From Octopus sinensis (Eukaryota), in the NCBI RefSeq assembly GCF_006345805.1, contig NC_043003.1, positions 89,962,001 through 90,026,000 of the forward strand: a DNA stretch of 64,000 bases, in the 5' to 3' direction. The stretch's first letter is position 1. Each line of letters starts with the position of its first letter. The notes under the pieces are model-generated. The model was not told the DNA's origin and ran no database searches. It was given only the letters and a program-made list of their open reading frames with translations. A program made the translations under genes and the position numbers. Of this stretch, positions 15,563-52,697 are shown piece after piece.

Positions 15563-15686
15563 TTCTTACAGCCGTTTCAGCCAAGAGGTCATAGTACCCC
15601 ACTTTACTTCCATCCCTTCAGTGAACTGAAGTATTTGGTAGATAAGATTAAGGTACTTGGGGGTGCCTCTGGGCTTCAACAGAGAG
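15563..15686 (-). ncRNA. Degenerate hammerhead ribozyme motif
   Basis: Minus strand: TCT-CTGTTGA-AGCCCAGAGG...CCTCTTGGCT-GAAA-CGGCTG-TA-AGA; one core substitution (A6 to T). Confidence 0.6.
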
Positions 15687-15748
15687 TTTAGAAAGTTTAT
15701 AAGGTTAAGTTGTAAATATAAATACATACATATATACACACTTTTACA

Positions 15749-16919
15749 TATGCTGATGACCTTGCTCTAGTAGCTGAGTTACTGCCAGAACTAGAGACGA
15801 AGTTTAGGGTCTCTAGTTCTTGGTCTAGAATCAAAGGGCCTTAGGGTTAACCTATCAAAAACCAAAGACTTAGTAAGTAGGAAGGCTGACAAATCACAAC
15901 CACCTTCAGGTAGATGGCCCTGCTTGATCTGTAGAAAAGGCATGGGTAGAAATTCCAAACGTGTACCCGGTGTAAGCACATAAAAGGTGCAGCAATATCA
16001 AAGGAAGGTTAACCAGGAAGATAGTTTTCGTGTGTGGCAGATGAACAAGAACAATAAACACTGAAGATGTACAGAAAACAGATTCCATCACATGCCAGGG
16101 GGAAAAACCAGAAGTAGTTGACAGCTTCCACTGCCTAGGCGACCAAGTCTGTAGTGGGGGTGGTTGCTTCAGCAACTAAAGTGAGATTGCAGCGATGGTC
16201 GATGCCAGTGTTGCATGTCCAGCCCATTTAAGAGTAACCTTGATGTGTTGGGTGATATGATATACTTGAGAAGACCTGCTGAGTCAAGTAAAACCAAAAT
16301 TGTAGTTGTGGCCAGTGCTCCTTGACTGGCTCCCATTCTGGTGGCACATAAAATGCATCATCCAAACATTGTTGATGCCAGTGTCCCTTGACTGGCTCCT
16401 GTGCCGGTGGCACATAAAAAGCACCATCTGTGCATGGTCAGTGCCAGGTCTACCTGACTGGCTCCTGTGCCGATGGCATGTGAGAAGCACCATCTGAATG
16501 TGGCTGATACCAGTGCCCTCTGACAGGCTCCCGTGCCAGTGGCACAATAAAAGCACCATCTGAGCATGGTCAGTGCTAGGTCCGCCTGACTGGCTCCTGT
16601 GCCGATGGCATGTAAAAAGCATCATCTTAATGTGGCCGATGCTAATGACCCCCGACTGGCTCCCGTGCTGGTGGCACATTAAAAAAAGCACTATCTGAAC
16701 ATGATTGATGCCAAGGTCACCTGACTGGCTCCTGTGCCAGTGGCACATAAAAAGTAACCACCACACTCTTAGAGTGGTTGGCATTAGGAAGGGCATCCAG
16801 CTGTAGAAACATTGTCAGATAAGATTGGAACCTGGTGCATCCACTGGCTCTGCAGACCTCAATCAAAACCTTCCAACCCATGCCAGCATGGAAAACGAAT
16901 GTTAAACGATGATGATGAT
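15749..16919 (+). mobile_element. RTE-clade LINE 3' fragment (YADD to 3' UTR and (GAT)n tail)
   Basis: Starts YADDLALVAELLPELE and matches 39487 onward; ~60-bp tandem array at 16320-16760; same 3' end motif. Confidence 0.85.
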
Positions 16920-17251
16920 AAATATATTCTTTCTTTCATTTACTAGTTTGTCATTTGACTGTGGCCATGCTGAAGCACTGCCTTAAAGGGTTTTTAGTTG
17001 AAGAAATCGACTCCAGGACTTAGTCTATTGCTCTCTTTCTCTGAACCACTAAGTTATGAAGATGTAAACACACCAACATCAGCTGTCAAATGATGGTGGG
17101 GAGAGAAACACAGACACAAAGATACATACACATACACACACATATATATATATATATGTGTGTATACATATTTATGTGTGTGTGTGTGTGTGTAATTCCA
17201 AGAGAGTTAGAGATTGTGAATCCAACCAACTAAGGGATACTACATAAATTA

Positions 17252-17800
17252 AGTTGTTCATGAAGGAGTCATACCCAATGACTGGTGTAGCAGCACCATA
17301 GTCAGTTGCTACAAGGGTAAAGGTGATGCTTTAGATAGAAATAACTACAGGAGTATCAAATTATTGGATCAGGTGATGAAAGTTATGGAGAAGGACATAG
17401 CCCAACTAATTAAGGAGAGAGTTAGCCTAGATGAGATACAGCTTGGTTTTATGCCATGCAGAAGCACCACTAATGCTATATTTCTGGTATGGCAATGCAA
17501 GAGAAATATTTAGCCAAAGATAAACCTCTTTTGTTGACTTGGAGAAAGCCTTTGACAGGGTACCCCATTCTCTTATCTGGTGGTCAATGCAGAAACTGGG
17601 GATAGATGAGTGGTTGGTAAGAGCTGTACAAGCCATGTTTAGGGATGCTGTTAGTAAGGTGAGGGTTGGCAACAAGTATAGTGAAGAATTCCAGGTAGAA
17701 GTAGGGGTTCATCAAGTATCAGTCCCCAGCCCCCCTTTTATTCATCATAGTCCTTCAGGCAATAACAGAGGAATTCAAGACAGGCTACTCCTGGGAGCTC
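17252..17800 (+). mobile_element. RTE-clade LINE RT fragment
   Basis: IPNDW...YKGKGDALDRNNYRSIKLLDQVMKVME...DLEKAFDRVP...GVHQ; homologous to 38925-39483. Confidence 0.88.
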
Positions 17801-17868
17801 AATATAGTTTATACTTATGTGGAAAAAATTGATTCAAATGACTATTTCTACTTGTTTTCTTATTGTAG

Positions 17869-17971
17869 GTTTGTGGCATCAACATGCGAACTGCAACTTA
17901 TCAGTTAGCAGCCAGTGTATTGCGTCAGTGTCGAGAAACCCTAACAATGTTGGTGCAATACAATCCACACA
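17869..17971 (+). CDS. DLG5: DLG5-like, exon e (PDZ3 C-terminal half)
   Basis: ttgtAG acceptor, A|GTAAGT donor; VCGINMRTATYQLAASVLRQCRETLTMLVQYNPH. Confidence 0.93.
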
Positions 17972-18984
17972 GTAAGTTACTTTCCGAATGTCTGTTTTCA
18001 TGATTTACATTCTATCGGTGATTGTTGGTTTATTGTTGAATTTATTAGTTTCAAGCTTTGACACAAAGCCAGCAAATTCAGGTGATGGGGTCAGTTGATT
18101 ACATTGACCCTAATATTTTACAAACCCTTGAGGGGATGGAAAGCAAAGCAGAATTTGAACTCAGATCATAAAGACAGATGAAATGCAGCCAAGCATTTTG
18201 CCCAACATGCTAAAGGTTCTGGTAGCTCGCTACCCTAATTTGTATTTTAATAAGATTATTTAACTGAAAGCATTGAATGTTTCATTATCATTTAATGTTC
18301 CCTCTTTCATACTTGGATGGGTCAGAAGGAATTTCATAAATTAGATTTTCTACATGTCATGAACCCTCACTTGTTTCCAAGTAAGGTAATATTCCCCCAT
18401 GACCGAACATGTTTTCATAGAAGACTGGAAATAAACAACAACACTTATATAACAGTGGTGCTTGTATACATTCATCATGTAATGTCATGACAAGGGTACA
18501 CATACAAACACACATGACATATATGAAGGCTTCTTCCAGTTCCTATCTACCAAATCCACTCACAAGGCTTTGGTTGTCTAGGTCTGTAGTAGAAGACACA
18601 TGCCCAAGGTACTACACAGAAGGAATGAACCCAAGATTCTTAATCACACATCCACATACTTCTTTTGCACTATGACACAATTTGATTTTCCAAAAAAAAA
18701 GTGTTCACCCCTCCATGAATGCAATCAGTATACTATGTGTGGGTGTATCTATATATATGAAACTGAGAATGCATGTCTGTCTGTTTGTCTGTCTGTGTGA
18801 ATCTCTAAAACTTGAGAACTACTCAACCAATTTCATTCAAATTTTACACATGCCTTACTTATGTAGTGTCATGGGCAAAAAAATGTTTTAACTTCTTGCC
18901 TAGGGCGAGTCCACAGCAATATCATATCTTCTCCATTATTTCAGTATTACGTGTCAAAAGTGAAAGAAAAACATCTCTCTATTG

Positions 18985-19191
18985 CAGGGGTGGGCAAACT
19001 TTTTTGATCGCGGGCCGCACAGTGCATCTTTGGAACCTTGGCGGGCCTCATTTATAAAAATCAAGTGAAAATATTTTTAAAGGCGGTTATAGACCTATAA
19101 ACACACAATTGATTGAAAGGAAATTTTGTGAAATATTCCTCTCGGCGGGCCGCATGAAAACCTATGGCGGGCCGTAGTTTGCCCACCCCTG
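18985..19191. mobile_element. hAT-family MITE
   Basis: TIRs CAGGGGTGGGCAAACT / AGTTTGCCCACCCCTG, a perfect 8-bp TSD CTCTATTG on both sides, and subterminal GCGGGCC repeats. Confidence 0.92.
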
Positions 19192-19426
19192 CTCTATTGT
19201 AATGTCAGATGCTTTCACTTTAATACTGAAACTATTAATTAAAGTGAAACTATTATATAACAGGGATGAACTGTAACTGGACATCCATTCTGCTAGAAGA
19301 AGATCCGCTATGGTCTTATATGCTATACCACTGGTTTTCAATTCACACTAATCAAATTCATATTCAATTTTTCACCCTTATTATTTTAAATTTACATGTG
19401 TATATATATATACACATGTAAATTTT

Positions 19427-19456
<30 letters not shown>

Positions 19457-19457
<1 letters not shown>

Positions 19458-19820
19458 TACTCTTTTACTCTTTTACTTGTTTCAGTCATTTGACTGCGGC
19501 CATGCTGGAGCACCACCTTTTAGTACTTATTCTATCGGTCTCTTTTTGCCGAACCGCTAAGTGATGGGGACGTAAACACACCAGCATCGATTGTCAAGCA
19601 ATGCTAGGGGGACAAACACAGACACACAAACACACACACATATACATATATATACATATATACGACAGGCTTCTTTCAGTTTCCGTCTACCAAATCCACT
19701 CACAAGGCATTGATCGGCCCGGGGCTATAGCAGAAGACACTTGCCCAAGATGCCATGCAGTGGGACTGAACCCGCAACCGTGTGGTTGGTTAGCAAGCAA
19801 CTTACCACACAGCCACTCCT
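19457..19820 (-). mobile_element. tRNA-derived SINE family A, near full length; other copies ~365-455, 3460-3570, 11485-11590, 13955-14070, 15185-15340, 16930-17130, 18525-18660, 20808-20965, 23070-23460, 49230-49612, 59170-59325
   Basis: Minus-strand head GGAGTGGCTGTGTGGTAAG...GGGTTCAGTCCCACTGC (A/B-box-like), CTTGGGCAAGTGTCTTCT core, internal (TG/TA)n, tail GCATGGCCGCAGTCAAATGACTGAAACAAG(TAAAAGAG)n. Confidence 0.85.
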
Positions 19821-19867
19821 ATATATATATATAGATGTATATATATATATAGATGTATATATATATG

Positions 19868-19901
<34 letters not shown>

Positions 19902-19926
19902 TATAGATGTATATATATATATATGT

Positions 19927-19972
<46 letters not shown>

Positions 19973-20044
19973 TGTATATATATATATATATATATATATA
20001 GATGTATATATATATATATATATATATATAGATGTATATATATA

Positions 20045-20136
<92 letters not shown>

Positions 20137-20166
20137 TGTATACATATAGATGTATATATATATATA
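19820..20166. repeat. (TA)n / TAGATG(TA)n microsatellite; similar long tracts at 49020-49230, 49860-50335, 52004-52430, 52838-53278, 53953-54422
   Basis: Directly visible; these tracts produce the YIYI... spurious ORFs. Confidence 0.97.
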
Positions 20167-20285
20167 TAAATTAGAAAAAAGACACCTTTTATCAATTCAA
20201 AATGAACAATTAAATTACACCATCTAGAAAATTACATAGAATAGAAATATTAAAATTAAAATAAAAACGTATATAATTGGTAGAA

Positions 20286-20374
20286 TAACGACACCTGTTT
20301 CGTTGCTATATTTAAGAAATGATTATAGTAGTAGTAAAATCACTTCAATATAAATATAGCCACTCATCAGGTTA
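20286..20374 (-). ncRNA. Hammerhead ribozyme motif with intact core
   Basis: Minus strand: TAAC-CTGATGA-GTGGCTATATTTA...TAAATATAGCAAC-GAAA-CAGGTG-TC-GTTA; long stem II, GUC triplet. Confidence 0.75.
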
Positions 20375-20421
20375 GAAATAAACTAAAATAATAAAATAAT
20401 TAATTAATAAATAAAAATACG

Positions 20422-20487
<66 letters not shown>

Positions 20488-20606
20488 GTGTTTTTTTTCT
20501 AATTTATATATACATATTATATTGTGTGAAATTTGATTTAGTATTTCTAAATTGAATTTTTTTCCCTGTAAGTTTGGATTTATATTCCCTCAAATAATTA
20601 TTATAT

Positions 20607-20649
<43 letters not shown>

Positions 20650-21238
20650 ATATATGAATGTATATATATATATATATACATGTATATGTATAGATGTATA
20701 TGTATACATGTATGTGTAGATGTATGTATATATATATAGATGTAAATGTAATATGTACACATATATACATGCATACATATATACACCCCCACACACACAT
20801 ATATAGGTGCAGGTGTGGCTGTGTGGTAACAAACTTCATTCCAAAACACATGGTCCGGGGTTCTGTCCCACTGTGTGGTAACTTGGCATGTGTCTTCTGC
20901 TATAGCCTCAGACCAACCAAAGCCTTGTCAGTGGATTTTGTCGACAGAAACTGAAAGAAATCAATTGTATATATATGTATGTATATATGTTAGTTTACGT
21001 GTGTGTCTTTGTGTTTCTCCCTCATCACTGCTTCACAACTGGTGTTCATTTATTTACATCCCCATAATTTATTGGTTTCACAAGAAGAAACTGATAGAAT
21101 AAGTGCCAGGCTTATCAAAATAAAAAAAAACCCACTAGGCATTGTCTCATATTTTTGTTTGCCCACTCAGTTATATCTATCAATTTACCTTTGTGTGTGT
21201 GTATGGATTTCGTACATAGGAAGTGTAACAAATTAATC

Positions 21239-21290
<52 letters not shown>

Positions 21291-21517
21291 ATATGTAAGT
21301 GTATGTGTGTGTCTTTGTCTCTGTGTTTCACCCTCATCACTGCTTCACAACTGCTGTTCATTTATTTACATCCGCATAAATTACTGGTTTCACAAAAACA
21401 AACTAATAGAATAATTACCAGGCTTATCAACATAAAAAAATGCACTAGGCTCATATCTTAGTTTGCCCACTCAGTTGTACCTATCAATTTATCTTTGTAT
21501 GTGTGTGTGTGTGTGTG

Positions 21518-21604
<87 letters not shown>

Positions 21605-23549
21605 CCCTAATGGGGGCCTTAACTCCCAAATTTTAGTAATTTCTTTTATGATCCAAAACTAGGTCAAAAGTACTGAATAGATCTTTATGAAATTTGGAAA
21701 TTATATACTATGCATAAGGACCATAACCCCCATGACAATTCATATATTTTTGCTGTTGATGAAATTTTAATCACAGATATTAGACACAAATGAAGTAATA
21801 TTTATAAAATTTCATCTTCTTATAATTTAGAAAGACCCCTCCATGGGGACTTAACACCCACAATTTTGTCATTTTATCTAAGCAAAGACGAATACTGTTG
21901 TACTCTTGGAAGCTGTAGGGTTACCCAAGCATAAAAGATTAGCATTATTTGTAATTCAATGGTACAACAGTGTAAGGGTTTGCTTTGACATACAATTAGA
22001 TTGTGATTTCTGCAATGTGCTGCATAAATTGTCAAGTAAATGAGAGGCATCTTTACCTCTACTGATTCAGTTGCAAAGTGTTGAGTAAAGTTGTTTGATT
22101 GCAGACCTCCTTTCAGTCTTTTTATTATCACTGGGTCACACATAGTCCCCAAATGGTAACATTGATTTCAAGGCCTTCCCAGATGAGTGACTGGTTATTC
22201 AAAGACATTTATAGATTGTATATTTATTCTGTCCAGTTACATATCAGTATAGTGGTCATTTGCCAACCCCAACTTTCATTTCTCCTTAGCCCTCATGTCA
22301 CACAGTTGTTAATGTTTATTTCAGTTGGGTCACCCCCTTCCAATTGCTATAGATTCCTAATGCCTGTTACGGCTGTGCCTGTCACCTGGATGGGGAGAAA
22401 TCCTACATTGGGAGTGGTAATGACTAGGGTAGGGTAGCTGACTGCTTATTGTGATCATTCGCCTTTTGGTTTCCTGTAGCTTTGCTCTCTTTTACAAACC
22501 CAGTGAACATTATATTTCCTATTTCAAAGAAATTCAAACAATAGATATAAGACCCAAGTTAAAAAGATTCTCAACAATTCAACTTCTCTGCTTCACATTA
22601 AGATACCCACCCCCAATAGGGGCCTTAACTCTCACATTTTAGAGCTCCATGACCTTCATTTTTCAGGAGTAAAATCTTTTTAACAGGTTCAATAAGACTG
22701 GAATTTTGTAATGTGCACATAAAAATCAGTAGTATGGGATACATGTGGCATGATTACAATTTTTTTAGGGTGTGTAAAGAGGGAAATAACCCTCATCTGC
22801 AGTTTTGATGAAATTCGAAACATAGATATTCCAGTTCATTACAGAAAATATAACAGAAAAGTCTAATTCTTCAATTGAATGTAACACGAGCAACGCCGGG
22901 TATCTCTGTTAGTAATATATATATACAAACACGCACAAAAGAAATTGTAATTAAAATTTATCGTTAGTTGTATTTATTTGTTACTTATATCACATTGTCA
23001 AGTGACCTACACCCCACCAAAATATTGCCATGCCTCCTAAGGTTGGAGATGGGCCTTGAGAAACACATTCTTTTATTCTTTTACACCTTTTAGTCATTTG
23101 ACTGCAGCCATGCTGGAGCACTGCCTTAACTGGTTTTAGTTTAAGAAATCGACCCTAGAACTTATTCTTTGTTAGCCTATGGTCCCTTTTGCCAAACCAC
23201 TAAGTTATGGGGACATAAACACATCAACATTAGTTATCAAGCAGTAGTGGTGGGATGAACACCAACACACTCACACAAATATATATACATATATATGACA
23301 GGCTTCTTTCAGTTTCAGTCTACCAAATCCACTCACAAGGCTTTGGTTGGCTTGAAGCTATAGCAGAAGACACTTGCCTAAGGTGCCACGCAGTGTGACT
23401 GAACCCAGAACCATGTGGTTGGAAAGCAAGCTTTTTACCACAGCCATGCCTGCACCTGCATCTAAACACATTTTATTGTAATTTTACTTGAATTTATTTC
23501 AGTTTGGTATTTCATTATTAAGAAAAAAACATATTTTTCTTGTTCACAG

Positions 23550-23703
23550 AATTCAACAGTGAACGGTCTGAAAGCAATTTGTGCTCCTCACCATCAGATT
23601 CCTCTGAATTATCCAAAAAACCAAATCATCTAGTCAGTAATGAAACTATAACTCCATCCAGTCCATCTTCAGAAAACACTCACCACAGAATTAGTACCCT
23701 CAG
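23550..23703 (+). CDS. DLG5: DLG5-like, exon f (inter-PDZ linker)
   Basis: cacAG acceptor, AG|GTGAAC donor; (K)FNSERSESNLCSSPSDSSELSKKPNHLVSNETITPSSPSSENTHHRISTL(S). Phase 1 to 2 fits. Confidence 0.82.
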
Positions 23704-24916
23704 GTGAACATTTATCCCAAAGATTTGTACATTCATATTGTCTGGTTAAAAATACAAACTTGTCTTTTTTCCTCAGTTTTGCAATTTAATTTTAGTTTTC
23801 AATTCATTTAAAGTTTGACATAAAATGAAAATCAATGATATTTATGTATTTTGTTTTGTATATATGTACAAATTACTTTAAGTCTTTAAAAATTGTTGAC
23901 CAGAAATCAGGAACATTTATTGGTTTCAAATTTTGGCACAAGGCCAGCAATTTTGGGAGTTGGGGTTTATAGTGAGTTACATCAACTCCAGTACTCAAAT
24001 GGTACTAATTTTATTACCCCGAAAAGATGAAAGGCAAAGTCAACATCAGTGCAATTTTAAACTCAAAATGTAGAGGTAGACAAAATGCCACTAAGCAAGG
24101 AACTGCATTTATTAAAATTAATAACATCATTTCTAGTCATTAAAAGACTCTGAGAAGTTAAATTCTGTATTTTGCAAAATATCTAAAAAAGATATATATT
24201 ATCAGAATATCTTTGTCATTTTAACAAAGAAGTATAACATATGTAATATGTTATATATATATATATATATATATAAAAAACATATTACATATTCTAATCA
24301 AGTTCCTGGGAGATTTCTTATTCTAAATTTCTAGCTTCTTTATCATTGATAAGTAGAATCAGTGTTTTAGATAGATACTTATGTGTGGGCCCACTTGGAG
24401 TTTGGATGTTAAGGGACAGTTCCTCTGATGTGATCAGATATAGCTACTTTAATAGATTTTTTTTTATAGGTAATAAAACTTTGAGTCTAAGTTAATGCTC
24501 AGATATTTTGTCCTCAACTATAATAGTCTACAGATTATTGAATTAACATATTTCAATCACACCTCTTTTCAAAAATAACAGATTTAAGTTGCTGTAATTG
24601 AATTCTAACAACTATTTAAATTATATTTGAGATGTGCCTTCACTAACAACCTAAATGTTTTTGTAGATTATTATTAACAACTTTGTTTTATTTATTACTT
24701 ATATTTTAACTGATAAGATCCCTCATTCTTAAATGCCATCAAAGTAAAGTATACATTCCAATGATGGTATAAGACAGTAGCTTTTAAATAACTGGAATTC
24801 AGTAGTCAAATTATATCAAAGATATAATCTGACTACTGAATTAACAAATTAAAAATGATTAAATTTTTAATTGATTTTTATTCAGTTCTCTTTTTAAGAG
24901 ATGAGGAATTGTGTAC

Positions 24917-25401
24917 ATTATTTACATTTGTCAGATATTTGTCCTCATTTTGTTTGTTGTTAACCCAACATTTTGGCTGATATACCCTCCAGCCTTCTTC
25001 GGGTGTCTTGGGGAAATTTCAAACTTGGGTTCTCATTCCTAAGGTATTTTTTGATGTTGTTGTTGTTATTATTATCATTATTATTCAAGTAACTGCCTGG
25101 AATCGAACTCGGAATCTTGGGGTTAGTAGCCTGCGCTCTTAAACACTATGCCATGGCATATGGCTTAGTGGTTAAGAGTGCAGGTTACTAACCCCAAGAT
25201 TCCGAGTTTGATTCCAGACAGTGACCTGAATAATAATAATAATAATAATAATAACAACAACAACGACAAAATACCTCAGGAATGAGAACCCAGCTTTGAA
25301 ATTTCCCCAAGACACCTGATGAAGGCTGGAGGGTATATCAGCCGAAATGTTGTGCTAACAACAAACAAGATGAGGACAAATATCTGTCAAATGTAAATGA
25401 T
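24917..25401. mobile_element. Palindromic head-to-head dimer of a tRNA-headed, hammerhead-tailed element
   Basis: Two ~240-bp inverted arms centred near 25157. Each arm has an A box (TGGCTTAGTGG), a B box (GAGTTC/TGATTCC), (AAT)n and a hammerhead-like core. Confidence 0.85.
25312..25355 (+). ncRNA. Minimal type I hammerhead ribozyme motif (Penelope-type)
   Basis: acac-CTGATGA-a-GGCTG-gagggtatat-CAGCC-GAAA-TG-TT-gtg; stem III looks like ACGT decayed to ATGT. Confidence 0.65.
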
Positions 25402-26096
25402 TTTTATCCCTCTTATTTATTGTAATTTTTGTCTTCTTACTAATCTCCACTCATCTAATTTTATTTACTACTATATTTAAAGGCATGAAGTTATATATAC
25501 AGTTTTTTAAAGACTCAGATGTCTATTTTCTGAGTATAGTTCTTTATCTTTTCATACTTAACACCTCATATTTAACTACTTTATCTAAAATCACAGTGGT
25601 TGTGGATTAGCTTCATCCTTTAAGATATCTTTTATGCATTCAAAACTGTTGTTAGTTAATTTTTTAAAAAATTAAACTAAACAGAAAATTCTTAAATTTA
25701 AAGAACCCAACAACAAGTGCTGTTTCTTATTCGTTTAGTTGCAATGAGTGGAAGGTCTGAAAATTGCAAAAGAGTCTCAATTCAAATTTTCTTACAAGAG
25801 TCTTGTTCTGATCCAATATTCTAAGCATTGAAATTATTTTTTCTTGAAGTATATTAGCACTAAGACAAATTTAATGTTGAGAGAAGAATCTCTTATGTAT
25901 GAAGTATTTATTTAAACCCTTTGTAAATTATGATTTAAGATAATAAATTCTTATAAGTCAGTTATAAAAACCTTAAAGTAAAGACATAGTATATCTATGT
26001 TTCTATCATTGCTGATCAAATAAACCTGTTTTGTGATATATCCTATATATTGATCCATTACTATTGATCCTATTTGTTTCTGTTTTCCATTTCCAG

Positions 26097-26286
26097 CTCA
26101 CCTGACTCTATGCACCTACCATCCAATCAGTGCTGTGTCCAACTGAAGAAAACTAAGTCCACCAGTAGTTTAGGATTGTCTTTTGTTGGCGGACAGGGCG
26201 GCATTGGAGTGTTTGTGAAGGATATCCATTCAAACAGTATAGCGGATGGTGTGGAGGGCCTCTCAAAAGGATGCCAAATTTTAGAA
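26097..26286 (+). CDS. DLG5: DLG5-like, exon g (PDZ4 N-terminal half)
   Basis: ttccAG acceptor, GAA|GTATGA donor; ...KKTKSTSSLGLSFVGGQGGIGVFVKDIHSNSIADGVEGLSKGCQILE, with an SLGL carboxylate-binding loop. Confidence 0.93.
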
Positions 26287-28135
26287 GTATGATGTTTAGT
26301 ATCCTTCTGTTTTTTTTCCCTCCCACTTCATTACAATAGAGGACATTTTAACATTACTAAAGTACGGATACAAACACAAATGTTGCTTTTTTAACATCAA
26401 AATTAATAGCATATTAAGAATCTCATTGTAGACCACATCTGATAGTAACTCCCACAGTTTATACCTTGATATAAATAATAAAGGTGAACTGGTAGTTTGC
26501 TTCACTGGTTAGCATTTTCGTTATATTTCTATTGAAAAATACTGGCCCTGTTTCAATTAATTTTGAAAATAATGAAGAATTTCATAAAATAACTTTGCCA
26601 TTATTAAGCTGGTCTCTGGAGCATAAATTAACATGAAATTTGAATGGAAGATTTTAATTTATATCATTTTAAAGCAGGAAATTTGTATCATATGACCAGG
26701 GGCTATTTCAGGTGGTTTGGATTCAGAAGGATTAAGTATCTTAGTCAGGTCATTCATTCAAATTCTAGTGCCTTTGTCCTTAGAATTTAATGCATGCAGA
26801 TATGTTCTTTTAGATTTGCATCTCTTAGATTTCCACAATGACAACAGCTGCAACAAAGTGATTAGAAAATGAAATTAATGAATGAACCCATAGTTGATAA
26901 TGAGATGAAACAATGAACCATTTCTCAGACATTAGGTGTACATTAGGTTATTTCTCCTTAGTGCTATTAATCTTTACTTACTTTTCATATAATTAATGAG
27001 CAGCTCTAATGATGTGCTTATTGGGCACTATTTAGAATTAGGCTGAAGCTTTTCTGTTGCAACCACCAACAACAACACCACCACAGCTGTCATCGTCGTT
27101 GTCATCATCATCATCTTTCCTTATAAGTGCCATATTAACCGCCATTTGTCCATGCTGACATGGAATTAATATGAATGAGGATGAAGTAGTTGTAAGGCAG
27201 TGGTGTTGTATGCTACTTTAATTTTCATTTTTAATATAGAGTAAATTTACAATGACTAATTGCTTCCCTGGTTGACTAATTATGATAATTTATGTCATTA
27301 AATTCTTGTCTAAATTGCAATATTACAACCATTTCTCTTAAGTTAACATTTGGCTTCACTAACATTCTTTGATATAATGTAAAGTTTTTACCTTCTTTGT
27401 TTATTACACTTATACGTGCATACACAGCATTAGAAGATGTTTGGAAATTTTGTGTGATAAATATGTATTAAAAGGTATGTGGCACATACAATTACAGTGT
27501 ATGTGTATCCATATATAGTCTAGTGGTGTTACCTCTTGATGGATCTCTTTCTGCAATAGTTTTATAATAAGAATATCAACACTATGTGGATGGGTGGGTA
27601 AGAGCAAGCAAGAGAGAGAGAGAGGTTATTATAACTCAGTGGTAAACATGAGGGAAGTCTCGAGTGATTCTGGATTCTTTATCTCTTAAAAGAAATAAGT
27701 TTTAGACCTTGAACATTTTGTAAGAACTTCCAGGATCTGAACAGAATTTTTCTGAAAGGAAATGCCAGCTAATTTTGTACAAGATTTGGAGATCAAAATT
27801 CTAAACAAATAACAACCAAAAGTTTTCAACTACAGATATTTAGCCTAGAGATATTACTTTATAAATACTGCCAGTCATGTTTATGGGATTTTCATTGCTT
27901 GTGAGAATGCTTCAAAAACATACTCAGCCAATTATTTTTAAAATAAGTGGAGAATAAAACACATAACAGCAGCAGTATTAAAACATTAAACAAACATTTT
28001 TTTGTTTTTATTGCTTCAGGGTGTAATATGTAGTATATTTTTCTTTAATTCTTTCAATTTATGCTTATTGTTGCCAAATCTGTATTAAATAAAATCCATT
28101 TTTTGCCCCCACCAACCCTTGCTTTTGTTTTCTAG

Positions 28136-28238: not shown

Positions 28239-28357
28239 GTAAGTATCACATCATATAAAAATCGTCCAAACTGACATGGTTCCAATATCGTTAAATATTT
28301 ATGCTTTTTTATAATTAGTTTGGTGTTAAACTTTCTGGTCCACTTTTTCTTTTTCAG

Positions 28358-35731: not shown

Positions 35732-35770
<39 letters not shown>

Positions 35771-41754: not shown

Positions 41755-42075
41755 GTATGTCTATTCTTCAAAACACTATTGACAAGTCTTCTCCTTTGTA
41801 TGGGACTATGACAATGGAGCATTAATCTCGTATAGCAATTGTTAAATGTTCAACTTATTGTATTAGTCTCATATAACTGGTCGATTTAATATTGTGACAG
41901 TTGTCACTTTGTTTCAGTTGTTAGATTTTGTCCTTGAATACACTCTCATTAACTTTGTTTTTTTTCATAGCTGGTTTATAAATCAGTTTAATGTTCTATT
42001 TTTGTTGTTGTTGTTGTTCTTCTTCTTCTTCTTCTTCTCCTCCTCCTTCTCCTCCTCCTCCTTAAGAAGAAAAAT

Positions 42076-42786
42076 AGCAAGCTGGCAGAATTGTTAGTAG
42101 TATTTCGTCTGTTGCTATGTTCTGAGTGCAAATTCTGCTGAGGTCAACTTTGCTTTTCATCCTTTCAAGGTTGATAAAATAAGAACCAGTCAAGTGCTGG
42201 GGTCAATGAAATAAGTACCAGTCAAGTGCTGGGGTTGATGTAACTGACCGAGTCCCCTCCCCTAAAATTTCAAGCCTTGTGCCTTTAGTAAATTGCTGGC
42301 CTTATGCCAAAATTTCAAATCATTATTATTATAGACAGCCGAATTATTAGCACAGCAAAATACTTGGTAGCCTTTCATCGTTTTGGGAGCAATAAACTAA
42401 GTATCAGTCGAGCACAGTCATTGTAATTTCGTAGCACCCTCCCCCAAAATTTCAGGCTTTATGTCTGTAGTAGAAAGAATTAATATTAACAATGATTTTT
42501 ATTATTATTACGTTTAAATATTTGTTGTGCAAGATTTATTATTATTATTATTAAGGCAGTGAGCTGGCAGAATCGTTAGCACACTGGATGAAATGCTTAG
42601 CAGTATTTCGCCCATTGCTGCATTCTGAGTTCAAATTCCACCGAGGTTGACTTTGCCTTTCATTGTTTTGGGCCGATAAATTAAGTACCAGTGAAATACT
42701 AGGGTTAATGTAATCAACTCATCCCCTCCCTAAAATGGCTGCCCTTGAAGTAAAATTTGAAACTATTATTATTATTATTATTATTG

Positions 42787-42827
<41 letters not shown>

Positions 42828-43260
42828 CATTATTATTATCATCATTATTATTGTTATCATCATTATTAAGGCAGTAAGCTGGCAGAATCATTGGCACGCT
42901 GGGTGAAATGCTTAGTGGTATTTCATCTTCCGCTATGTTCTGAGTTCTAATTCTGTCAAGGTCACCTTTACCTTCCGTCCTTTTGAGGTCAATAACTTAA
43001 GTACCAGTGAAACACTGGGGTCGATGTGCCTTTAGTAGAAATGGTTATTAGTATTATTACTATTATTATTATATAAGGTGGCATGTTGGCAGAATTTCTT
43101 TCAACTCGTTACATTCTGACTTCAAATGCCACCAAGGTCAACTTCACCTTTCATCATTTAGAAGTTGATAAAATAAAGCACCAATGAAGTACTGGTTGTT
43201 GTTATCAGCTATCCCCCTCCCCCCAGAACTGCTGGCCTTGTGCCATAACTAAAAAGAACT
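42076..43260 (+). mobile_element. Tandem cluster of ~5 tRNA-derived SINE family B copies separated by (ATT)n; dispersed copies ~18050, 23925, 29395, 30355, 31280, 33150, 38212, 47930, 58598, 63620
   Basis: Repeated GAGCTGGCAGAATCGTTAGCA...GAGTTCAAATTCC...GACTTTGCCTTTCATCCTTT.GGGGT.GATAAA.TAAGTACCAGT. Confidence 0.85.
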
Positions 43261-43507
43261 GTTGTTGTTATCTGATAAAATTAGTAGAAGTTAGATACCA
43301 AAGGTCTCTTTTATCAATTGAACCTTGCATCTACAAATATAATTTTTTTACCTATTTTAAAAATCCTTGTTTTTATCTCCTCAGTGCAGGCATGGTTGTG
43401 TGGTCTAAGAAGTTCACTTTCCAACTACATGTAGGCAATACTCTATGTGGGTCTTAGTTGATCTTTGAAGAACTAATCAGTATTTGAAATATTTTCTTAC
43501 ACAAAAG

Positions 43508-44094
43508 AGAATTGTAATGTTATTATCAGTCCAAATATGTTTGAGGCACATTTGAACTGGTGAACAAGCTTCTCACTGCATTTTGTCATGGAAACTATAT
43601 CATGTTTGTTGACAAACGGTGTGTATACACCTATATCAGCTCGCAACACTGTCTACCCAAACCATGAGATGCAAGCATTTTGGAGTAGTTATCTCCTCTT
43701 CGGTCACAGACACCAAGCTGTGAGCTGATTAAAGAGGCTAATTCTTTTATGCTTTTCCAGTTGCCATATGGTAACTGGCAGCGCTGTGTGGTGGCTCACC
43801 ATGAGTAAATTATGGAGTGGGAGTGCTAAGCAAGGATAAGTAAAATTGTTATGTTATTATCAGCCTAAATATGCTTGAGGCATGTTCGAACCAGTGAACA
43901 AGTTGCTGTTTTGTCACAGAAAATATATCCTGTTTGTTGACAAATGATGTAGACACCATTTGTCAACAAACAGGATATATTTTCTGTGACAAAATGCAGT
44001 GAGTAGCTTGTTCCTTGGTTCAAATATGCCTCAGGCATATTTGGATTGATAATAACATTACAATTTTACTTTTCACTGCTTAGAGCTCACCCTC
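43508..44094. repeat. Direct repeat plus 280-bp palindrome
   Basis: 43508-43631 is repeated at ~43843-43955; 43814-44094 is an imperfect palindrome centred near 43951. Confidence 0.8.
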
Positions 44095-44351
44095 TGTAAC
44101 AAAGGAAAATGTCTAGTCATTTAGATATCATTTTGGCAATCTTGTGTATATGTAAGGTTGCCATGAGAAATCGTCAGAAATTTTGAGACCAAATGTTTGT
44201 AGTAACTTTGAAGACTTTACTTGAGTGTTGTTCATGAAAGGGTCAGGTACCACTTCTCAGTAAGTCTACCATAGAATTTCCTTCCCATTTGAGTCTACGA
44301 TTTTGTTGTCATCTACCAACAGTGATGCATGTTATTGTTTTCCTTTGCTAG

Positions 44352-44461
44352 AATTGCCATTGTTTGCTGAATGTAAGTCCAGAAGCTATTGACCGGCTTC
44401 ACCGGCAGCAAATATTCCCAATTGTTTTGTTAGTAAAACAGAAAACACCCAAGCAAATAAG
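44352..44461 (+). CDS. DLG5: DLG5-like, exon n (GK)
   Basis: gctAG acceptor, AG|GTATGT donor; NCHCLLNVSPEAIDRLHRQQIFPIVLLVKQKTPKQI(R) (HCLL...AI.RL...PIV GK signature). Confidence 0.94.
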
Positions 44462-44744
44462 GTATGTTTGTATTCTTCACTTGGTAATTTTTAAAAAATA
44501 TCAATTCAGCTCTTTTGATATTAACTCACCTGAGATCATCTGTGGTTCTATGATTAATTCTTTTTGTTTAAAGTGATCTATATTTAAAATTTTCCTCAAA
44601 ATTTCATGTTAATTTATGTCCCAAACACCAGCTTAATAATGAGTTATTTTACTAAATTCTTCATTATTTTCAAAATCAATTGAAACAAAGGCATTGTATA
44701 TCAGTACAAATATGGTAACAAAAGAGTTAAAATTTTGCTTTCAA

Positions 44745-46374
44745 TGAATCATTCTCAAGAAACCAGAATTTTGCAATATTATTTTATTCACTTACTTTTA
44801 CATGTTTATCACCTTCAAAGCATTCTCCATTTGAAGCAATGCATCAGCCCAGACACATTTTCTACTGTTTGAAGTAGTCCAAGAACTCTTGCGTAGTGAT
44901 GCCTTTTAACACCTCCATTGAATTTCTTTCCTTCACCTCTTCCACATCATCATCATCATCATCCGTTTTCCATGCTAGCATAGGTTGGACGGTTCTACTG
45001 GGGTCTGTGAAGCCAGAAGGCTTCATCAGGCCCAGTCAAATCTGGCAGTGTTTCTACGGTTGGATGCCCTTCCTAACGCCAACCACTCCGTGAGTGTAGT
45101 GGGTGCTTTTTACGTGCCACCCGCACTGGTGCCAGACAGAGCTGGCAAACGGCCACAAACGGATGGTGCTTTTTATGTGCCACCGGCACGAGGCCAGTCA
45201 GGGCGGCTCTGGCTACGGTCGCGAAACGGAAGGTTCTCTTACATGCCACCGGCACTGGTAACACATCTGCAATTTCCTTACTCTTAAGGACTTTTTTCAT
45301 TCAGGGGAACAAAAAAAGTCACAGGAAGGAAGATTAGGTGAATATGGAGTGTGGGTAAGCGGTGTCATGCCATTTTTGGTCAAAAACTGTCTCACACTCA
45401 AGATGCTGTGTGCAAGCACATTATCATGACGCAACCACCACTCTCCACTTTGTCACAGGTTGTGGCATTTTCCTGTCACCGCGTCTCGCAAACACTTCAG
45501 AACTTCCACGTAAAATGTTTGGTTAATAGTTTGACTGGGAGGAACAAATTCTGTGTGGACAATCCCTTTCACATCGATGAAACAAATCAGCATCGTCTTG
45601 GCATTGGACTTCACTTGATGCACTTTTTTGGGGCGTGGTTTCATTGAATGCTTCCATTGATTTAATTACTGCTTTGTTTTCAGGCCATAGCACCAGCTTT
45701 CCTCATCAGTGATGACCTTCAAAAAAGGGTCTAGATCAACTTCCAACTATTCTTTCAGTTTATGTTGTGCATTCAAATGTGACTGCTCTTGATTTTCCAT
45801 GAGCAAGCGGGGCACAAATTCTGCTGCAATTTTCTTTTCATACCCATTTCCCTGCTCAAAATTTGTTGGCAGGACCTCCAGAATACACCAATCATATCAA
45901 AAAGTTTGTCAGTTGTTTGGCAATGGTCCTCCAAGATCAGTTCATGAATTTTCATGATGTTTTCATTCATTTGGGTGGTTGACAGTCACCCTGAACAAGG
46001 TTGGTCTTAAAGCAACAAGTAACCATTCCTAAAGCATGGAAACCACTCTTAAACTTGTGTTTTGCTCATGACAGCATCCTTGTAAGTTGCCTGAAGCATG
46101 ACAACAGTTTCGGCCACCGTTTTCCCCAGCAGAAAACAGAATTTCAAAGAAGCACACTGTTCCTTCATTTCAGCTATTGCAAAAATTGATGAACTGGGGA
46201 GAAGCACTGCAAGACAATGATGCACCATGTGGCAGCACAACCATACTTGATAACACTGGTCAGCAGACTGATGCCTGAGGGTTGCATCAGGTGGTTTCTA
46301 GTAACAGAAGTCTGAATTACAACTAGCTTACCCCGCAGAGAATGTTTCCAATTACTTTGGGGTATCCCCTTGTA
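44745..46374 (-). mobile_element. Decayed mariner (Tc1/mariner) transposon
   Basis: EQCASLKFCFLLGKTVAETVVML (N-terminal HTH) and PRPKKVHQVKSNAKTMLICFIDVKGIVHTEFVPPSQTINQTFYVEVL. The TIR-like end reads TACAAGGGGATACCCCAAAG on the minus strand from 46374. Interrupted by an RTE 3' fragment at 44945-45280. Confidence 0.87.
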
Positions 46375-47282
46375 AATGCCTCTAACTTTTCTAGATGGGA
46401 CAGATCGATGTGGTTGATGTTCACCTTTAACATCTATAGATCAACACAGATAGAAGAGGAATACTAAAGAGTTACATGTCTGAAGAAGAAGCTCACTGTT
46501 GTCAGGTTAGATATGGTAGGAGAGACAGAGTTAGGATGATGAAAGGAGAATTGGGAGCACTTAGTGGAAATAGTTTTCAAGAAACTAGTTCTTAGGAATA
46601 GAAACTAAAATGCTACAGTATGTCATTAATCTCAATATTACTTGAAGCAAAGGCAGTGCATTTGAACAGAAATATAGTAAAAAAAAAGAGTTAATAATCT
46701 TGTAGCCTCAATATGTGACTCCATTGCAACATACATAAGTATATTCACTGATACATAGATGTACACATGTAGAGATATTGTTGTAGCAATACAGATTATG
46801 GGACTGCAGAATGTTCTGTTCAAAGAAACAATACAAATGTCAGCAGTAAGGCTTGTAATTACAATCATGTAGAAAGTAGGCCAGGATCTTCCTTTCAACC
46901 TGGGATGCCATTTTCATTCACAGGTTGACAGAAAATTAATTTGCCTCTTGTCCCTGTATGCAGTTGCTAGCAAATTCCTTTCTGCTGTTGAATTATTTCA
47001 CCTGTTTTTTTTTTATATCCAGCAGCATCTTTTCCCTACTTGCGACTACTGTAGCACATATGTTGCCACAGCTTCTAAATCAACCACATGTTTGACTGAA
47101 GTGAAAAATCAGTCAAAAAATAATGTCCTTTTTCCTCATATGAATATTGAACCCACAGCAGTACTCAGTTCTGGTTTCATAAATCTTCTAAACTTTGAAG
47201 TCTTTTATTGTTTTATTTACATTCTGTATAATGATTATATTCGTGTATGTGTGTAATGTATGTGTATATGTTTCTTTTACAG

Positions 47283-47392
47283 AGAAGTTCGAGATGTCCA
47301 GTTTTGGACAGAAAAAATTAGTAACAAAAATTCAAAAGAACGTTTTGAACAATTCCAAAAAATAGAACATGATTACCGGCATTTTATAACAG
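47283..47392 (+). CDS. DLG5: DLG5-like, exon o (GK, penultimate coding exon)
   Basis: tttacAG acceptor, G|GTGAGA donor; EVRDVQFWTEKISNKNSKERFEQFQKIEHDYRHFIT. No stop codon reached. Confidence 0.92.
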
Positions 47393-48188
47393 GTGAGACT
47401 CCATCATTACTTCTTTAACATAATTCCTTTTCTGTCTCCCATATATGATTTGAAAATCTGTTTTAAAAAAAAACAAACATTGTAGATATAGTTGTATATC
47501 TCATATCTTACACCTATATTATCAAAGTTTCAATTATTTGACTGTAGCCATATTGCCCTTAAAAGTTTAGTTGGTTATGTTATTCCCTATACCTATTTCA
47601 TACAGTCTCATACTTATCTGTTGAACCACTAATTATGGGACAAGTTGGTGGAAACACATACATATAGCCATATGTATCTATGTATGATATGTATATATTT
47701 ATGTAGGTGTGTGTATTAAACTTTTACAAGGAAAAGATTGGCAATGACTTCAAAAATAATTTTGGCTTGCTCCTTCATCAGACTCTACATGCACTCTACA
47801 AAATATATTGAGTACTCTTTCAGTTTGATACTAAATTGTTTTTATAAAGAACTTGATATAAAGCAAACAACATATAAGAAACTAAATTTTGTTGTAGTGA
47901 TTGTTATACTATTATTCTTGCTATTATTGGCAGGGACACAATGACGAAATCACTGCTGCTGGTGTCAACTTCGACTTTCATCCTTTCACAGTCAATAAAA
48001 TAAGTACTAGTTGCATTACGGGGTTGATATGATTGACTATCCTATTCCCCAAAATTTCAAGCCTTGTGCCTATAGTAGAAAGGATTATAACGAGAGAGAA
48101 GATATTTTCTAAAAATAAACATGTGCCAGCATAGTTCTGTGCATGTCATATATATATATATATATATATATACATATTTATATGTATG

Positions 48189-49886: not shown

Positions 49887-49951
<65 letters not shown>

Positions 49952-50301: not shown

Positions 50302-50333
<32 letters not shown>

Positions 50334-50353
50334 CTTTATTTAAAGCAGCAGAA

Positions 50354-50510
50354 AATTCAACAAAACCTGTTACTCTGAGTTTCCCGTTGCCATTCATTGG
50401 ACAGTTTTTGCTAGCAAATTTACTACCTGCGGATAAAAGTTAATTAGTTAGGACAGTTTTTGTCCGATGAACGGCAACGGGAAACTCAGAGTAACAGGTT
50501 TTGTTGAATT
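50354..50510. repeat. Inverted-repeat element with a hammerhead-like motif in each arm
   Basis: 50-bp inverted arms 50354-50403 / 50461-50510; TGT-CCGATGA-ACG-GCAA-CGG-GAAA-CTCAGAG-TA-ACA. Confidence 0.7.
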
Positions 50511-51743
50511 ACTCTACCACTGGTATTTGAGTACTCTTTTTTCCACCTTGTTTCACATTTATGTGTTTACTCTGGTATATATATATATATGTATGTATAT
50601 GTATATATACATGTATATGTATATATACATGTATATATATGTATATGAATCCTATGTCCCTAAAGAAACTATTCAGTTCACCTTGATTATCTCACTTCCA
50701 TTTCTTAATATATAATTAGTCTAAGATATCTTTACAAAATATATTTAACCAAATAGGAATGAATATACCATACCGGTTTTAGTTTAACAGCCATAAATGT
50801 TAAAAAACTTCATTGCAAACTTAGAATTAAATTCTTCTTTTTTATAATATTCTCCAATACTAAGTAGTATTAATCCTATGTCCCTAGGGAAGCTATTTGG
50901 TTCATCTTGATTATCTTACTCCCATTTCTTAATATATAATTAACCTAAGATATTTTTACCTAACTAATTAACTTTTATCCACAGGTAGTAAATTTTATTC
51001 CCATTAGATCCTATATTTTAATTCATTAATATCAACTCACTATCCATGGAATTTGAATAATTTACTCTTTTAAATTACCTCTCTTCTTATTATAAAATAT
51101 CGCCTTCTACTAAACCTATGAATATCTTCCTTCTTTGATTTTCCCTCTGCCATCTTTCTTAGTATATATTTTGACCCCTAATATGTTCACTTGATTAATA
51201 AGGCTTTTTCCCCCAGTTAATAAGTACTATGCCTACTCATAATAAGTGATTGTCTCTTTCTCCAAACTTGAATAAATTTTAGATTTATATTTTTTCCTTT
51301 ATTCTAAGGTGTCAAAATACTTGGAACTTATAGACCAACTGTTGTGATGATGTGCATAGGGTTTGTAAGGTCTCTGCATTCTCTGTGAATGTTATTGTGA
51401 CCATTTGACATTGACCTAGTTCTCCTAATCTGTTCATCAAATAGTAGTAGTTGGCATTTAGTTGTGACACTGCTGTCTTCTACATAAATTCCTTATATGG
51501 AGCTATGACATCCCCTTTACCCCATTTCTATAATTAGAAAATCTTTATTGTCTCCTTTCATTTGTTCTTCCCTCTCAGAACATTACAGTAGTCTGGAACA
51601 ACTAAATCTTAGTCAGTCAGTTGATGGGCTCCACTACCTCAAATGTTCTTACAATTTAAGTCCACATCTTTGTCTATGTATCTACCTTCTCTATAATGTT
51701 GCCACTTGATACGAAAATTTTTGTATTAATGGAAAACCTCTAT

Positions 51744-51834
51744 AATTGGCTGATGAGTGCTCAGCATTTTAAAATTGTTGTAATTCTTACAACATTTAAT
51801 AAAATAATGTAGTACGAAACGATCGTACCAAATT
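51744..51834 (+). ncRNA. Hammerhead ribozyme motif with intact core
   Basis: aaTTGG-CTGATGA-GTGCT...AGTAC-GAAA-CGATCG-TA-CCAA; palindromic stem III ACGATCGT; predicted GUA cleavage after 51827. Confidence 0.8.
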
Positions 51835-52208
51835 ACCGGAGTCATTCTTGTTGCTTATTTTGATTATATATGTATATATATATGTATGTATGTATACTGC
51901 CAGATCTGACTGGCCTGGTGCAGCCTTCGGGCTCCCCAGACCCCAGTTGAACCGTCCAACCCAGGCTAGCATGGAAAGCGGACCTTAAACGATGATGATG
52001 ATGATATGTATGTATATGTACATGTATGTATATGTATATGTACATGTATGTATATGTATATATATACATGTATGTCTATGTATATATATGTATGTATATA
52101 TATATATGTATGTATATATGTATATATATGTGTATATGTATATGTATTTAAGTATATGTATGTGTATATGTATATATATATGTGTATATATATGTATATA
52201 TATATATG

Positions 52209-52240
<32 letters not shown>

Positions 52241-52254
52241 CGTATATGTATACA

Positions 52255-52291
<37 letters not shown>

Positions 52292-52429
52292 CGTATATGT
52301 ATACATATATATGTATATAAGTATCTATATATATGTATATATATATACACATGAATATGTATATATATATATATGTATGTATGTATGTATGTTGGTATGT
52401 ATGTATATACATATGTATATATATATATG

Positions 52430-52697
52430 TAAATAAATAATTAAATGGAGTTAAAGGCAGGTGTTATTCAAATTCTTTTACTTCCGACATGTTTCAAAGA
52501 TATCAATATACATATCCATCATTTTCTGTTAAAATGTCTTATTGGCGAGTTTCATTTCTTCACTTCTATGAAGAGAAGATTACATTGTTTTACACCAATT
52601 TATTCCTTTGGAATAATATCAGTGATATGTTCGAAACGTGTCGGAAGTAAAAGAATTTGAATAACACCTGCATTTAACACCATTTATTTATTTATTT
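52430..52697. repeat. Inverted-repeat element containing a degenerate hammerhead motif (52562-52648, +)
   Basis: ~65-bp inverted arms (52430-52495 / 52633-52697); ACTTCT-ATGAAGA-GAA...TTC-GAAA-CGTG-TC-GGAAGT. Confidence 0.7.

What the first reader, a model, noticed from the sequence alone, without database searches (positions are those of the whole stretch)
15563..52697. About eight hammerhead-motif loci scattered through one gene's introns
Seen: motifs at 15563(-), 20286(-), 24960/25312, 32591, 36990, 50354/50461, 51744(+) and 52562(+). Apart from the related pair at 32591/36990, stem sequences differ, yet all share CTGAnGA (or a one-base variant), stem II, GAAA, a palindromic stem III (ACGATCGT, ACAG.TGT, ACGT, ACTC.GAGT, ACTT..AAGT, ACG.GT) and TH. 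Most sit in inverted repeats or between (TA)n tracts. Inference: several non-autonomous PLE/retrozyme-like families are abundant in this genome (about one locus per 5 kb here), with no intact PLE ORF nearby. This could be a largely unannotated class of ribozyme-bearing repeats.
Basis: partly seen in the sequence, partly recalled or inferred. Interest (0 to 1): 0.75.

Follow-up and report, generated by a model that had tools for sequence, protein, structure and literature searches.

The report
Penelope retrotransposon stubs carrying hammerheads
The hammerhead-ribozyme motifs are real, but they are the mostly decayed cut-short ends of several Penelope-like jumping-gene families (five of seven traced to protein-coding copies), a known kind of genomic debris; only a tRNA-like start in one family, which likely acts as a promoter, is unusual.

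Summary
In detail: nine loci of seven families carry minimal type I hammerhead motifs. Three pass a strict descriptor (0.02 expected from shuffles); the rest are decayed or variant. The interpretation needs correcting. Five of seven families (25312, 51744, 20286, 50461, 52562) run, in longer copies elsewhere, into GIY-YIG-type coding ends of Penelope-like elements (PLEs). They are 5'-truncated, often inverted, PLE ends, not a separate non-autonomous or retrozyme class; 15563 and 32591/36990 stay unlinked. One locus per 5 kb is local. A blind 720-kb sample gives one locus of these families per 40 kb and one intact canonical core per 144 kb. Core letters decay neutrally after insertion but show no shared variants, which fits selection on source elements only. 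Six loci lie in introns of a DLG5-like gene; three lie past the last exon found. PLE minimal hammerheads are published (PMC4209133), and this scan reported the same reading on other DNA several times. The residual novelty is a tRNA-like A/B-box head in the pLTR at 25156, where short copies begin; promoter activity is untested.

The parts
15381..15751 (-). Family E element (no coding partner found); hammerhead 15564-15685 with long helix II, core A6U in this copy
20170..20424 (-). Family C 3' end between (TA)n tracts; hammerhead 20286-20374, core intact; longer copies reach a GIY-YIG-type C-terminus about 2.3 kb upstream
   Evidence: element limits approximate
24879..25154 (-). Family A inverted arm (tRNA-like head, (AAT)n, hammerhead 24962-25007 with U4C and G12A, long tail)
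25155..25401 (+). Family A pLTR arm: tRNA-like head, (AAT)n, ORF start, hammerhead 25311-25356 (core intact, U.G in helix III)
25156..25226 (+). tRNA-like head with A-box and B-box matches (box consensus recalled), candidate RNA polymerase III promoter
32575..32694 (.). Family F palindromic element, both hammerhead arms broken (32633-32676+, 32593-32637-)
36958..37168 (.). Family F palindromic element; minus arm 36992-37036 keeps all core letters but has weak helices I and II
47704..47785 (.).
50329..50415 (-). Family D inverted arm (short 3' end), hammerhead 50367-50404 broken
50416..50451 (-). 36-nt filler at the family D inversion junction matching family B 3' UTR (window 50960-50995)
50454..50580 (+). 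Family D arm with tail, hammerhead 50460-50497 (U4C; A.G plus 2 bp and GNRA loop in helix II); longer copies join an RT + GIY-YIG-type ORF
50644..51868 (+). Family B 3' UTR and end; hammerhead 51746-51831 intact; longer copies join a GIY-YIG C-terminus
52425..52708 (+). Family G end with short inverted arm (52425-52505-); hammerhead 52562-52648, C3 lost and helix III shortened; longer copies join thumb + GIY-YIG-type coding sequence
6036..47391 (+). Host gene, DLG5-like MAGUK (PDZ, guanylate-kinase-like; name DLG5 recalled): 14 exon-like matches from 6036 to 47391; terminal exon not found

Best explanation
These loci are the 5'-truncated, often head-to-head inverted ends (pseudo-LTRs) of seven Penelope-like retrotransposon families, five of them traced to protein-coding copies, and each carries a minimal type I hammerhead motif that is predicted to self-cleave only as a dimer and is likely a decaying passenger once inserted. 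Inferred mechanism: the element's GIY-YIG endonuclease nicks AT-rich or (TA)n DNA. Its reverse transcriptase starts inside the RNA just downstream of the hammerhead, at one of two sites (the short end and the tailed end). It copies back through the uncleaved hammerhead and usually stops early or at the RNA's 5' end in the pLTR, and a second, inverted copy is often added. The hammerhead is kept by selection only in source elements; inserted copies mutate neutrally and likely do nothing for the host gene.
For: Shown: coding links. A: GIY-YIG-type C-terminus directly upstream in the copies (30 fetched by that junction) and ORF start downstream. B: GIY-YIG match in L402, L397 (Pfam E 3.5e-4, 2.9e-3, below the curated cut-off). 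G: thumb and endonuclease upstream, 35% identical to B's, E 1e-18. C: endonuclease end in 3 of 8 fetched loci. D: 551-aa open frame in L433, profile match to a Pfam RT + GIY-YIG PLE protein, probability 94.5%. PLE signatures: two alternative 3' ends (A 17 short, 13 long of 30; D 17 short, 29 long arms); inverted partner upstream in 20, 10, 9, 25, 1, 16, 8 of 30 copies of A-G; (TA)n within 450 nt downstream in 30, 30, 30, 27 of 30 copies of B, C, D, G against 23% of random stretches and 6 of 30 for A. Structure: 209 descriptor hits in all fetched DNA fall into 27 clusters with unrelated stems and five or six pair types at each tested position; 14 of 27 have a perfectly palindromic helix III. 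Selection: singleton changes 18 of 1390 in core against 199 of 16617 elsewhere (p 0.70); shared variants at 0 of 50 core against 73 of 598 other positions (p 0.004). Literature: PMC4209133, PMC11167929, PMC8557442.
Against: Families E and F were not linked to any ORF; F is old and nearly always a palindrome with a fixed centre, which could mean it spread as a non-autonomous unit. Pfam support for the B and G endonucleases is below cut-off and L433 matches no Pfam family. Clade names rest on recalled motifs; no tree with named references was built. The 30 copies per family are the best matches to the window copy, not a random draw, and shared variants may include recurrent mutation. Cleavage was not tested; RNA reads showed no pile-up of ends. 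Tandem internal-deletion derivatives of family A exist, so part of that family is retrozyme-like.
Confidence: 0.88

Rival explanations
1. Family A's pLTR contains a working RNA polymerase III promoter, so it sheds short transcripts (head, hammerhead, tail) that PLE enzymes copy in trans: a SINE-like unit built into an autonomous PLE.
For: A-box in 10, B-box in 7, both in 6 of 12 distinct full heads, always 45 nt apart, none in 50 shuffles; relaxed ARAGORN folds 3 of 12 against 0 in shuffles. Of 30 arms that reach the head, 24 stop within -14..+13 of its first base and 6 read on into the ORF end. No T4 run between the head and about 600 nt past the hammerhead in L329.
Against: Family D shows an equally sharp wall of 5' ends next to its core without any tRNA-like head (53 of 56 arms; 14 of 16 incidentally fetched arms), so a wall follows from any pLTR start site or fold-back point. 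A short natural palindrome sits at the wall. ARAGORN at default finds 0 genes in 31 loci and Rfam no tRNA. RNA reads show no start pile-up.
Confidence: 0.3
2. The loci are non-autonomous non-LTR retrozymes that spread through circular RNAs.
For: No PLE ORF in the window; E and F unlinked; tandem deletion derivatives of A with two hammerheads exist in about 10 of 30 loci; PMC7229834 and bioRxiv 10.64898/2026.07.22.740005 describe PLE-related retrozymes.
Against: Retrozymes are defined there as tandem direct repeats of 170-400 nt. No hammerhead locus in the window is a tandem array; pairs are inverted; five families are collinear with coding PLE ends.
Confidence: 0.1
3. Intronic hammerheads were co-opted by the host to modulate the DLG5-like pre-mRNA.
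For: The window is richer than the sample (3 intact in 64 kb against 0.44 expected, P 0.01); two of three intact copies are sense to the gene.
Against: The window was chosen for this feature; most copies are broken; singleton decay is neutral; monomeric minimal hammerheads showed no cleavage in vitro in PMC4209133.
Confidence: 0.03
4. The motifs are chance matches in AT-rich, repeat-rich DNA.
For: Only 3 arms pass the strict descriptor; isolated folds of 25309, 50458, 52560 and 36990 are not unusual (z -1.4, +1.1, -0.7, +1.2); the U3-A8 variant descriptor has real background.
Against: 3 against 0.02 in the window, 5 against 0 in 20 shuffles of 600 kb; family majorities restore full motifs; stems differ between families yet pair.
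Confidence: 0.01

Closest known systems
Minimal type I hammerheads (min-HHR) in pLTRs of metazoan Penelope-like elements (Cervera and De la Pena 2014, PMC4209133; read parts 1-2 of 4, and passages of supplement file 2; file 1 not searchable)
   Same: Type I order, short helix I, palindromic helix III, optional extra nucleotide between 9 and 10.1, U3-A8 variant, many heterogeneous families per genome, mostly single motifs from truncated PLEs, dual motifs 100-700 bp apart on opposite strands; molluscs (Lottia, Crassostrea) in the supplement.
   Different: No octopus entry in the searched supplement; several families here have 50-90-nt helix II regions and 4-bp palindromic helix III; density is higher than the 2,000-9,000 per genome quoted there.
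PAc, Poseidon element of Anolis (Frangione et al. 2024, PMC11167929; passages)
   Same: Family A: ORF starts at the hammerhead, two 3' ends (tail), AT-rich targets; hammerhead cleavage not needed for insertion in vitro, which fits amplification of U4C family D copies.
   Different: Family A has a tRNA-like A/B-box head in the pLTR; none is mentioned in the passages seen.
Neptune and Nematis EN+ PLE clades (Craig et al. 2021, PMC8557442; passages)
   Same: C-terminal GIY-YIG, cysteine linker in B and D, (TA)n targeting, inverted 5'-truncated partner, 30-40-nt tail.
   Different: Clade labels for B, C, D, G (Nematis-like) are from recalled motifs; G lacks the linker cysteines; 3' UTRs are long (1.1-2.3 kb in B, C, D).
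Non-LTR retrozymes (PMC7229834, passages; bioRxiv 10.64898/2026.07.22.740005, part 1 of 5 and passages)
   Same: Non-coding hammerhead units related to PLE pLTRs; family A has tandem deletion derivatives.
   Different: Window loci are single or inverted, not tandem direct repeats, and carry minimal rather than canonical hammerheads.
Schistosoma Sm-alpha SINE-like elements (as reviewed in PMC6765202, passages) and Helenus/Ajax small-RNA-derived LTRs (PMC10886601, passages)
   Same: A polymerase III-type promoter joined to a hammerhead, or a tRNA-derived sequence inside a terminal repeat.
   Different: Here the head is part of the pLTR of a protein-coding PLE, not of a non-autonomous element.

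Membership tests
PLE minimal type I hammerhead | Core CUGANGA...GAAA...UH in type I order with helices I and II | tested here: met
   Majority sequences of A, B, C, E, G pass; 3 window copies pass; D and F are variants that fail the descriptor.
PLE minimal type I hammerhead | Short palindromic helix III | tested here: met
   All seven families; 14 of 27 clusters perfectly palindromic.
PLE minimal type I hammerhead | Stems differ between families yet stay paired | tested here: met
   Five or six pair types at 1.1:2.1, 10.1:11.1 and 15.2:16.2 over 27 clusters; pairing is built into the descriptor, so the shuffle controls carry the test.
PLE minimal type I hammerhead | Self-cleavage as a dimer | not testable with these tools
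   No assay; one search shows no read-end pile-up in fragmented, unstranded RNA-seq.
EN+ Penelope-like element | ORF with RT and C-terminal GIY-YIG collinear with the hammerhead end | tested here: met
   A, D, G (81, 83); endonuclease end only for B (81, 82) and C (88). Not shown for E, F.
EN+ Penelope-like element | Optional 30-40-nt or longer tail (two 3' ends) | tested here: met
   A and D counted; seen by eye in B, G.
EN+ Penelope-like element | Inverted 5'-truncated partner | tested here: met
   1-25 of 30 copies per family.
EN+ Penelope-like element | RT phylogeny places families in named clades | not tested
   No named reference proteins were available; labels are recalled from motifs.
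Non-LTR retrozyme | Tandem direct repeats of 170-400 nt each with a hammerhead | tested here: not met
   No such array at window loci; a subset of family A copies elsewhere does form tandem derivatives.
Non-LTR retrozyme | Abundant circular RNAs | tested here: inconclusive
   No unit-length back joint among the 15 joints shown of 67; library not suited.
tRNA-derived SINE (family A) | A and B boxes at tRNA-like spacing | tested here: met
   6 of 12 heads have both, 45 nt apart; 0 in shuffles; consensus recalled.
tRNA-derived SINE (family A) | Non-autonomous: head not part of a coding element | tested here: not met
   The head follows the ORF stop codon by about 34 nt in coding copies.
tRNA-derived SINE (family A) | Transcribed by RNA polymerase III from the head | not testable with these tools
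   Only indirect: wall of 5' ends, also seen in head-less family D.

The most novel reading that the evidence does not exclude
A protein-coding Poseidon-type PLE has captured a tRNA-derived RNA polymerase III promoter in its pLTR and uses it to shed short hammerhead-bearing transcripts that its own enzymes retrotranspose, making a SINE that is built into its autonomous partner; the locus at 24879-25401 is one such product.
Probability: 0.3. Interest if true: 0.6.

Novelty: new member of a known kind. Interest (0 to 1): 0.3.

Why it matters
As it stands it extends a published pattern to a genome with very many PLE hammerhead families (27 clusters in under 2 Mb read; about 19,000 intact canonical cores estimated), useful for repeat annotation and as a natural variant library. 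The contrast between neutral decay of copies and invariant cores across source lineages is indirect evidence that the hammerhead matters to PLE propagation, which is an open question because cleavage was dispensable in vitro (PMC11167929); family D's amplified U4C subfamily is a ready test case. If family A's head is a real polymerase III promoter, it would show one route by which a SINE arises from inside an autonomous retroelement.

Tried and rejected
Rfam scan of the window: dominated by (TA)n matches to miRNA models, no hammerhead in the 150 of 188 rows shown. Antisense coding in the T-rich upstream of B, C, E, G: six-frame check gave no open frame; the regions proved to be sense 3' UTRs or coding ends. 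Apparent links from chance neighbours (L077, L189, L048, L209, L105) were rejected as insertions into other PLEs' (TA)n. Default ARAGORN and Rfam on family A heads: nothing. Homolog search with the B endonuclease fragment: none at E 0.001 among 69 candidates. Terminal exon of the host gene: not found by alignment in the window or the next 80 kb, nor from loose read ends, which were crowded out by a repeat. Sequencing runs: no RNA holder listed on record; three raw RNA runs of a related label from one study were laid: family A is covered but shows no discrete starts or ends. Upstream partner of family E: 42 matches listed but not read; family F not pursued. Sense-strand depletion in introns: not testable with one gene. 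Lunse et al. 2017 (dimer-cleaving PLE hammerhead variants) was not available, so whether the family D and F variants are already described there is open; bioRxiv supplements were not seen. Searches for prior description; none returned a paper on octopus PLE hammerheads or on a tRNA-derived promoter in a PLE pLTR.
Full report
Setting. The window is G000:C7:89962001-90026000 of a 2.72-Gb animal genome; its repeats look like those of an octopus (recalled, and also said in earlier scan notes). A DLG5-like MAGUK gene (name recalled) runs on the + strand: a 723-aa homolog with PDZ and guanylate-kinase families matches 14 exon-like pieces from 6036 to 47391. The last piece ends in a GT donor and RNA reads stop there, but the terminal exon was not found in the window, which has a 100-N gap at 58305, or in the next 80 kb. 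So 15563, 20286, 24960/25312, 32591 and 36990 are intronic; 47704, 50354/50461, 51744 and 52562 are probably in a last intron, not shown.

Check of the observation. A strict type I descriptor gives 3 hits in the window against a mean of 0.02 in 100 block-wise dinucleotide shuffles, and 0 in the reversed window. Each named locus was searched in the genome; first-look candidates were 944, 1845, 1280, 1078, 593, 27 and 2307, of which the best 30 loci each were fetched. They form seven families (A 25312, B 51744, C 20286, D 50461, E 15563, F 32591/36990, G 52562). Majority sequences restore a full minimal hammerhead in A, B, C, E and G; 14-22 of 24-30 copies per family pass the descriptor. D has a U4C core in its youngest subfamily and a 2-3-bp helix II with a GNRA loop, with an A-U to A.G change between subfamilies; F is old, 72-90% identical, and palindromic. 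Profiles find nine loci in the window, one new. Of 13 arms located, 3 are intact by the descriptor.

Density. Seventy-two 10-kb stretches taken at round coordinates hold 5 intact canonical motifs (0 in 20 shuffles of the first 600 kb), 9 when the U3-A8 variant is allowed (0-4 in 15 shuffles) and 16 with one mismatch (1-7 in 8 shuffles). They hold 18 loci of the seven families. That extrapolates to about 19,000 intact cores (6,000-44,000) and 68,000 loci (40,000-107,000). The window is several-fold richer than the sample, but it was picked for this feature and the families were defined from it.

What the loci are. The genome holds many GIY-YIG elements (147 matches among 150 scored of 5029 candidates), some with stop-free RT + GIY-YIG frames of 775-781 aa and hammerhead variants near their 3' ends. 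Walking upstream linked five window families to coding PLEs. A: the endonuclease C-terminus ends about 34 nt before a tRNA-like head, then (AAT)n, then an ORF start that runs through the hammerhead. B: a GIY-YIG C-terminus about 1.3 kb upstream in 7 of 12 fetched loci by tblastn, besides partial ones. G: thumb and endonuclease. C: endonuclease end in 3 of 8 loci. D: a young family (99% identical matches) with a 551-aa frame that matches the PLE protein of L305 by profile at 94.5% and has 1130 database homologs. E and F were not linked. PLE insertion marks are present: two 3' ends, inverted partners, and (TA)n targets for B, C, D, G but not A, as described in PMC8557442 and PMC11167929 (passages).

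How it most likely works. Shown: collinearity with coding PLEs, truncation, inversion, tails, targets, covarying stems across 27 clusters (209 hits, not independent). Inferred from PMC11167929: reverse transcription starts inside the RNA downstream of the hammerhead and copies through it, so every insertion, however short, carries the motif; this explains hammerhead-rich stubs without ORFs nearby. Across five families, private changes hit core and non-core positions equally (18 of 1390 against 199 of 16617), while variants shared by two or more copies occur at 0 of 50 core and 73 of 598 other positions (p 0.004; CpG sites, position 7 and the window copies left out). This fits selection on source elements and neutral decay afterwards; the copies are not a random draw. 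Cleavage is predicted from PMC4209133 to need a dimer and to be weak; it was not tested.

The unusual part. Family A's pLTR has A and B boxes 45 nt apart, and 24 of 30 arms that reach the head stop within -14..+13 of its first base. B, C and G show spread-out 5' ends. Against a special role: family D has an equally sharp wall without such a head, a short palindrome sits at the wall, default tRNA finders are blank, and RNA reads from a related label show no start pile-up. I put a working polymerase III promoter at 30%. Six literature searches returned no description of it; the nearest are Sm-alpha and Helenus/Ajax (passages). Earlier scan notes reached the same two readings on other DNA; I had formed them before looking, and those notes are not independent support.

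Verdict. Real feature, known kind: PLE pLTR stubs with minimal hammerheads (PMC4209133, parts 1-2 of 4 read). The 'non-autonomous, unannotated class' reading is largely not supported. Interest 0.3.

Noticed in passing
window 50416-50451 and 50960-50995: The junction of the family D inverted pair holds 36 nt matching the 3' UTR of the neighbouring family B element in reverse: a templated filler between two different PLE families.
   Followed up: partly
L305:1174-2610 and L308:7003-8439: Young RT + GIY-YIG PLE family (98-99% identical copies) with a 479-aa upstream frame overlapping the 781-aa ORF in another frame, and a U3-A8 hammerhead variant at its 3' end.
   Followed up: partly
L313-L315, L318, L319, L340; L325, L337, L341: Internal-deletion tandem derivatives of family A in which the ORF N-terminus is joined back to the pLTR at two recurring junctions, giving two hammerheads in direct repeat (retrozyme-like); several cluster on one contig.
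   Followed up: partly
family D, e.g. window 50460-50497 and L092-L111: A subfamily with U4C in the core and an A.G mismatch at 10.1/11.1 has amplified recently beside a U4 subfamily; a natural test of whether cleavage is needed.
   Followed up: partly
family F, L151-L180: Old palindromic element with a nearly fixed centre a few bases upstream of the core; may have spread as a fold-back unit.
   Followed up: no
window 52769-57612 (-): A decayed non-LTR retrotransposon (RT-like frames) interrupted by long (TA)n tracts lies next to the family G locus.
   Followed up: no
window 1539-2438 (-): Frames resembling a piggyBac-type transposase (recalled motifs) upstream of the first exon matched.
   Followed up: no
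window 13373-13565 and 16311-16754: Tandem 62- and 66-nt units of a very abundant dispersed repeat that is highly covered in RNA reads (seen as passenger).
   Followed up: no
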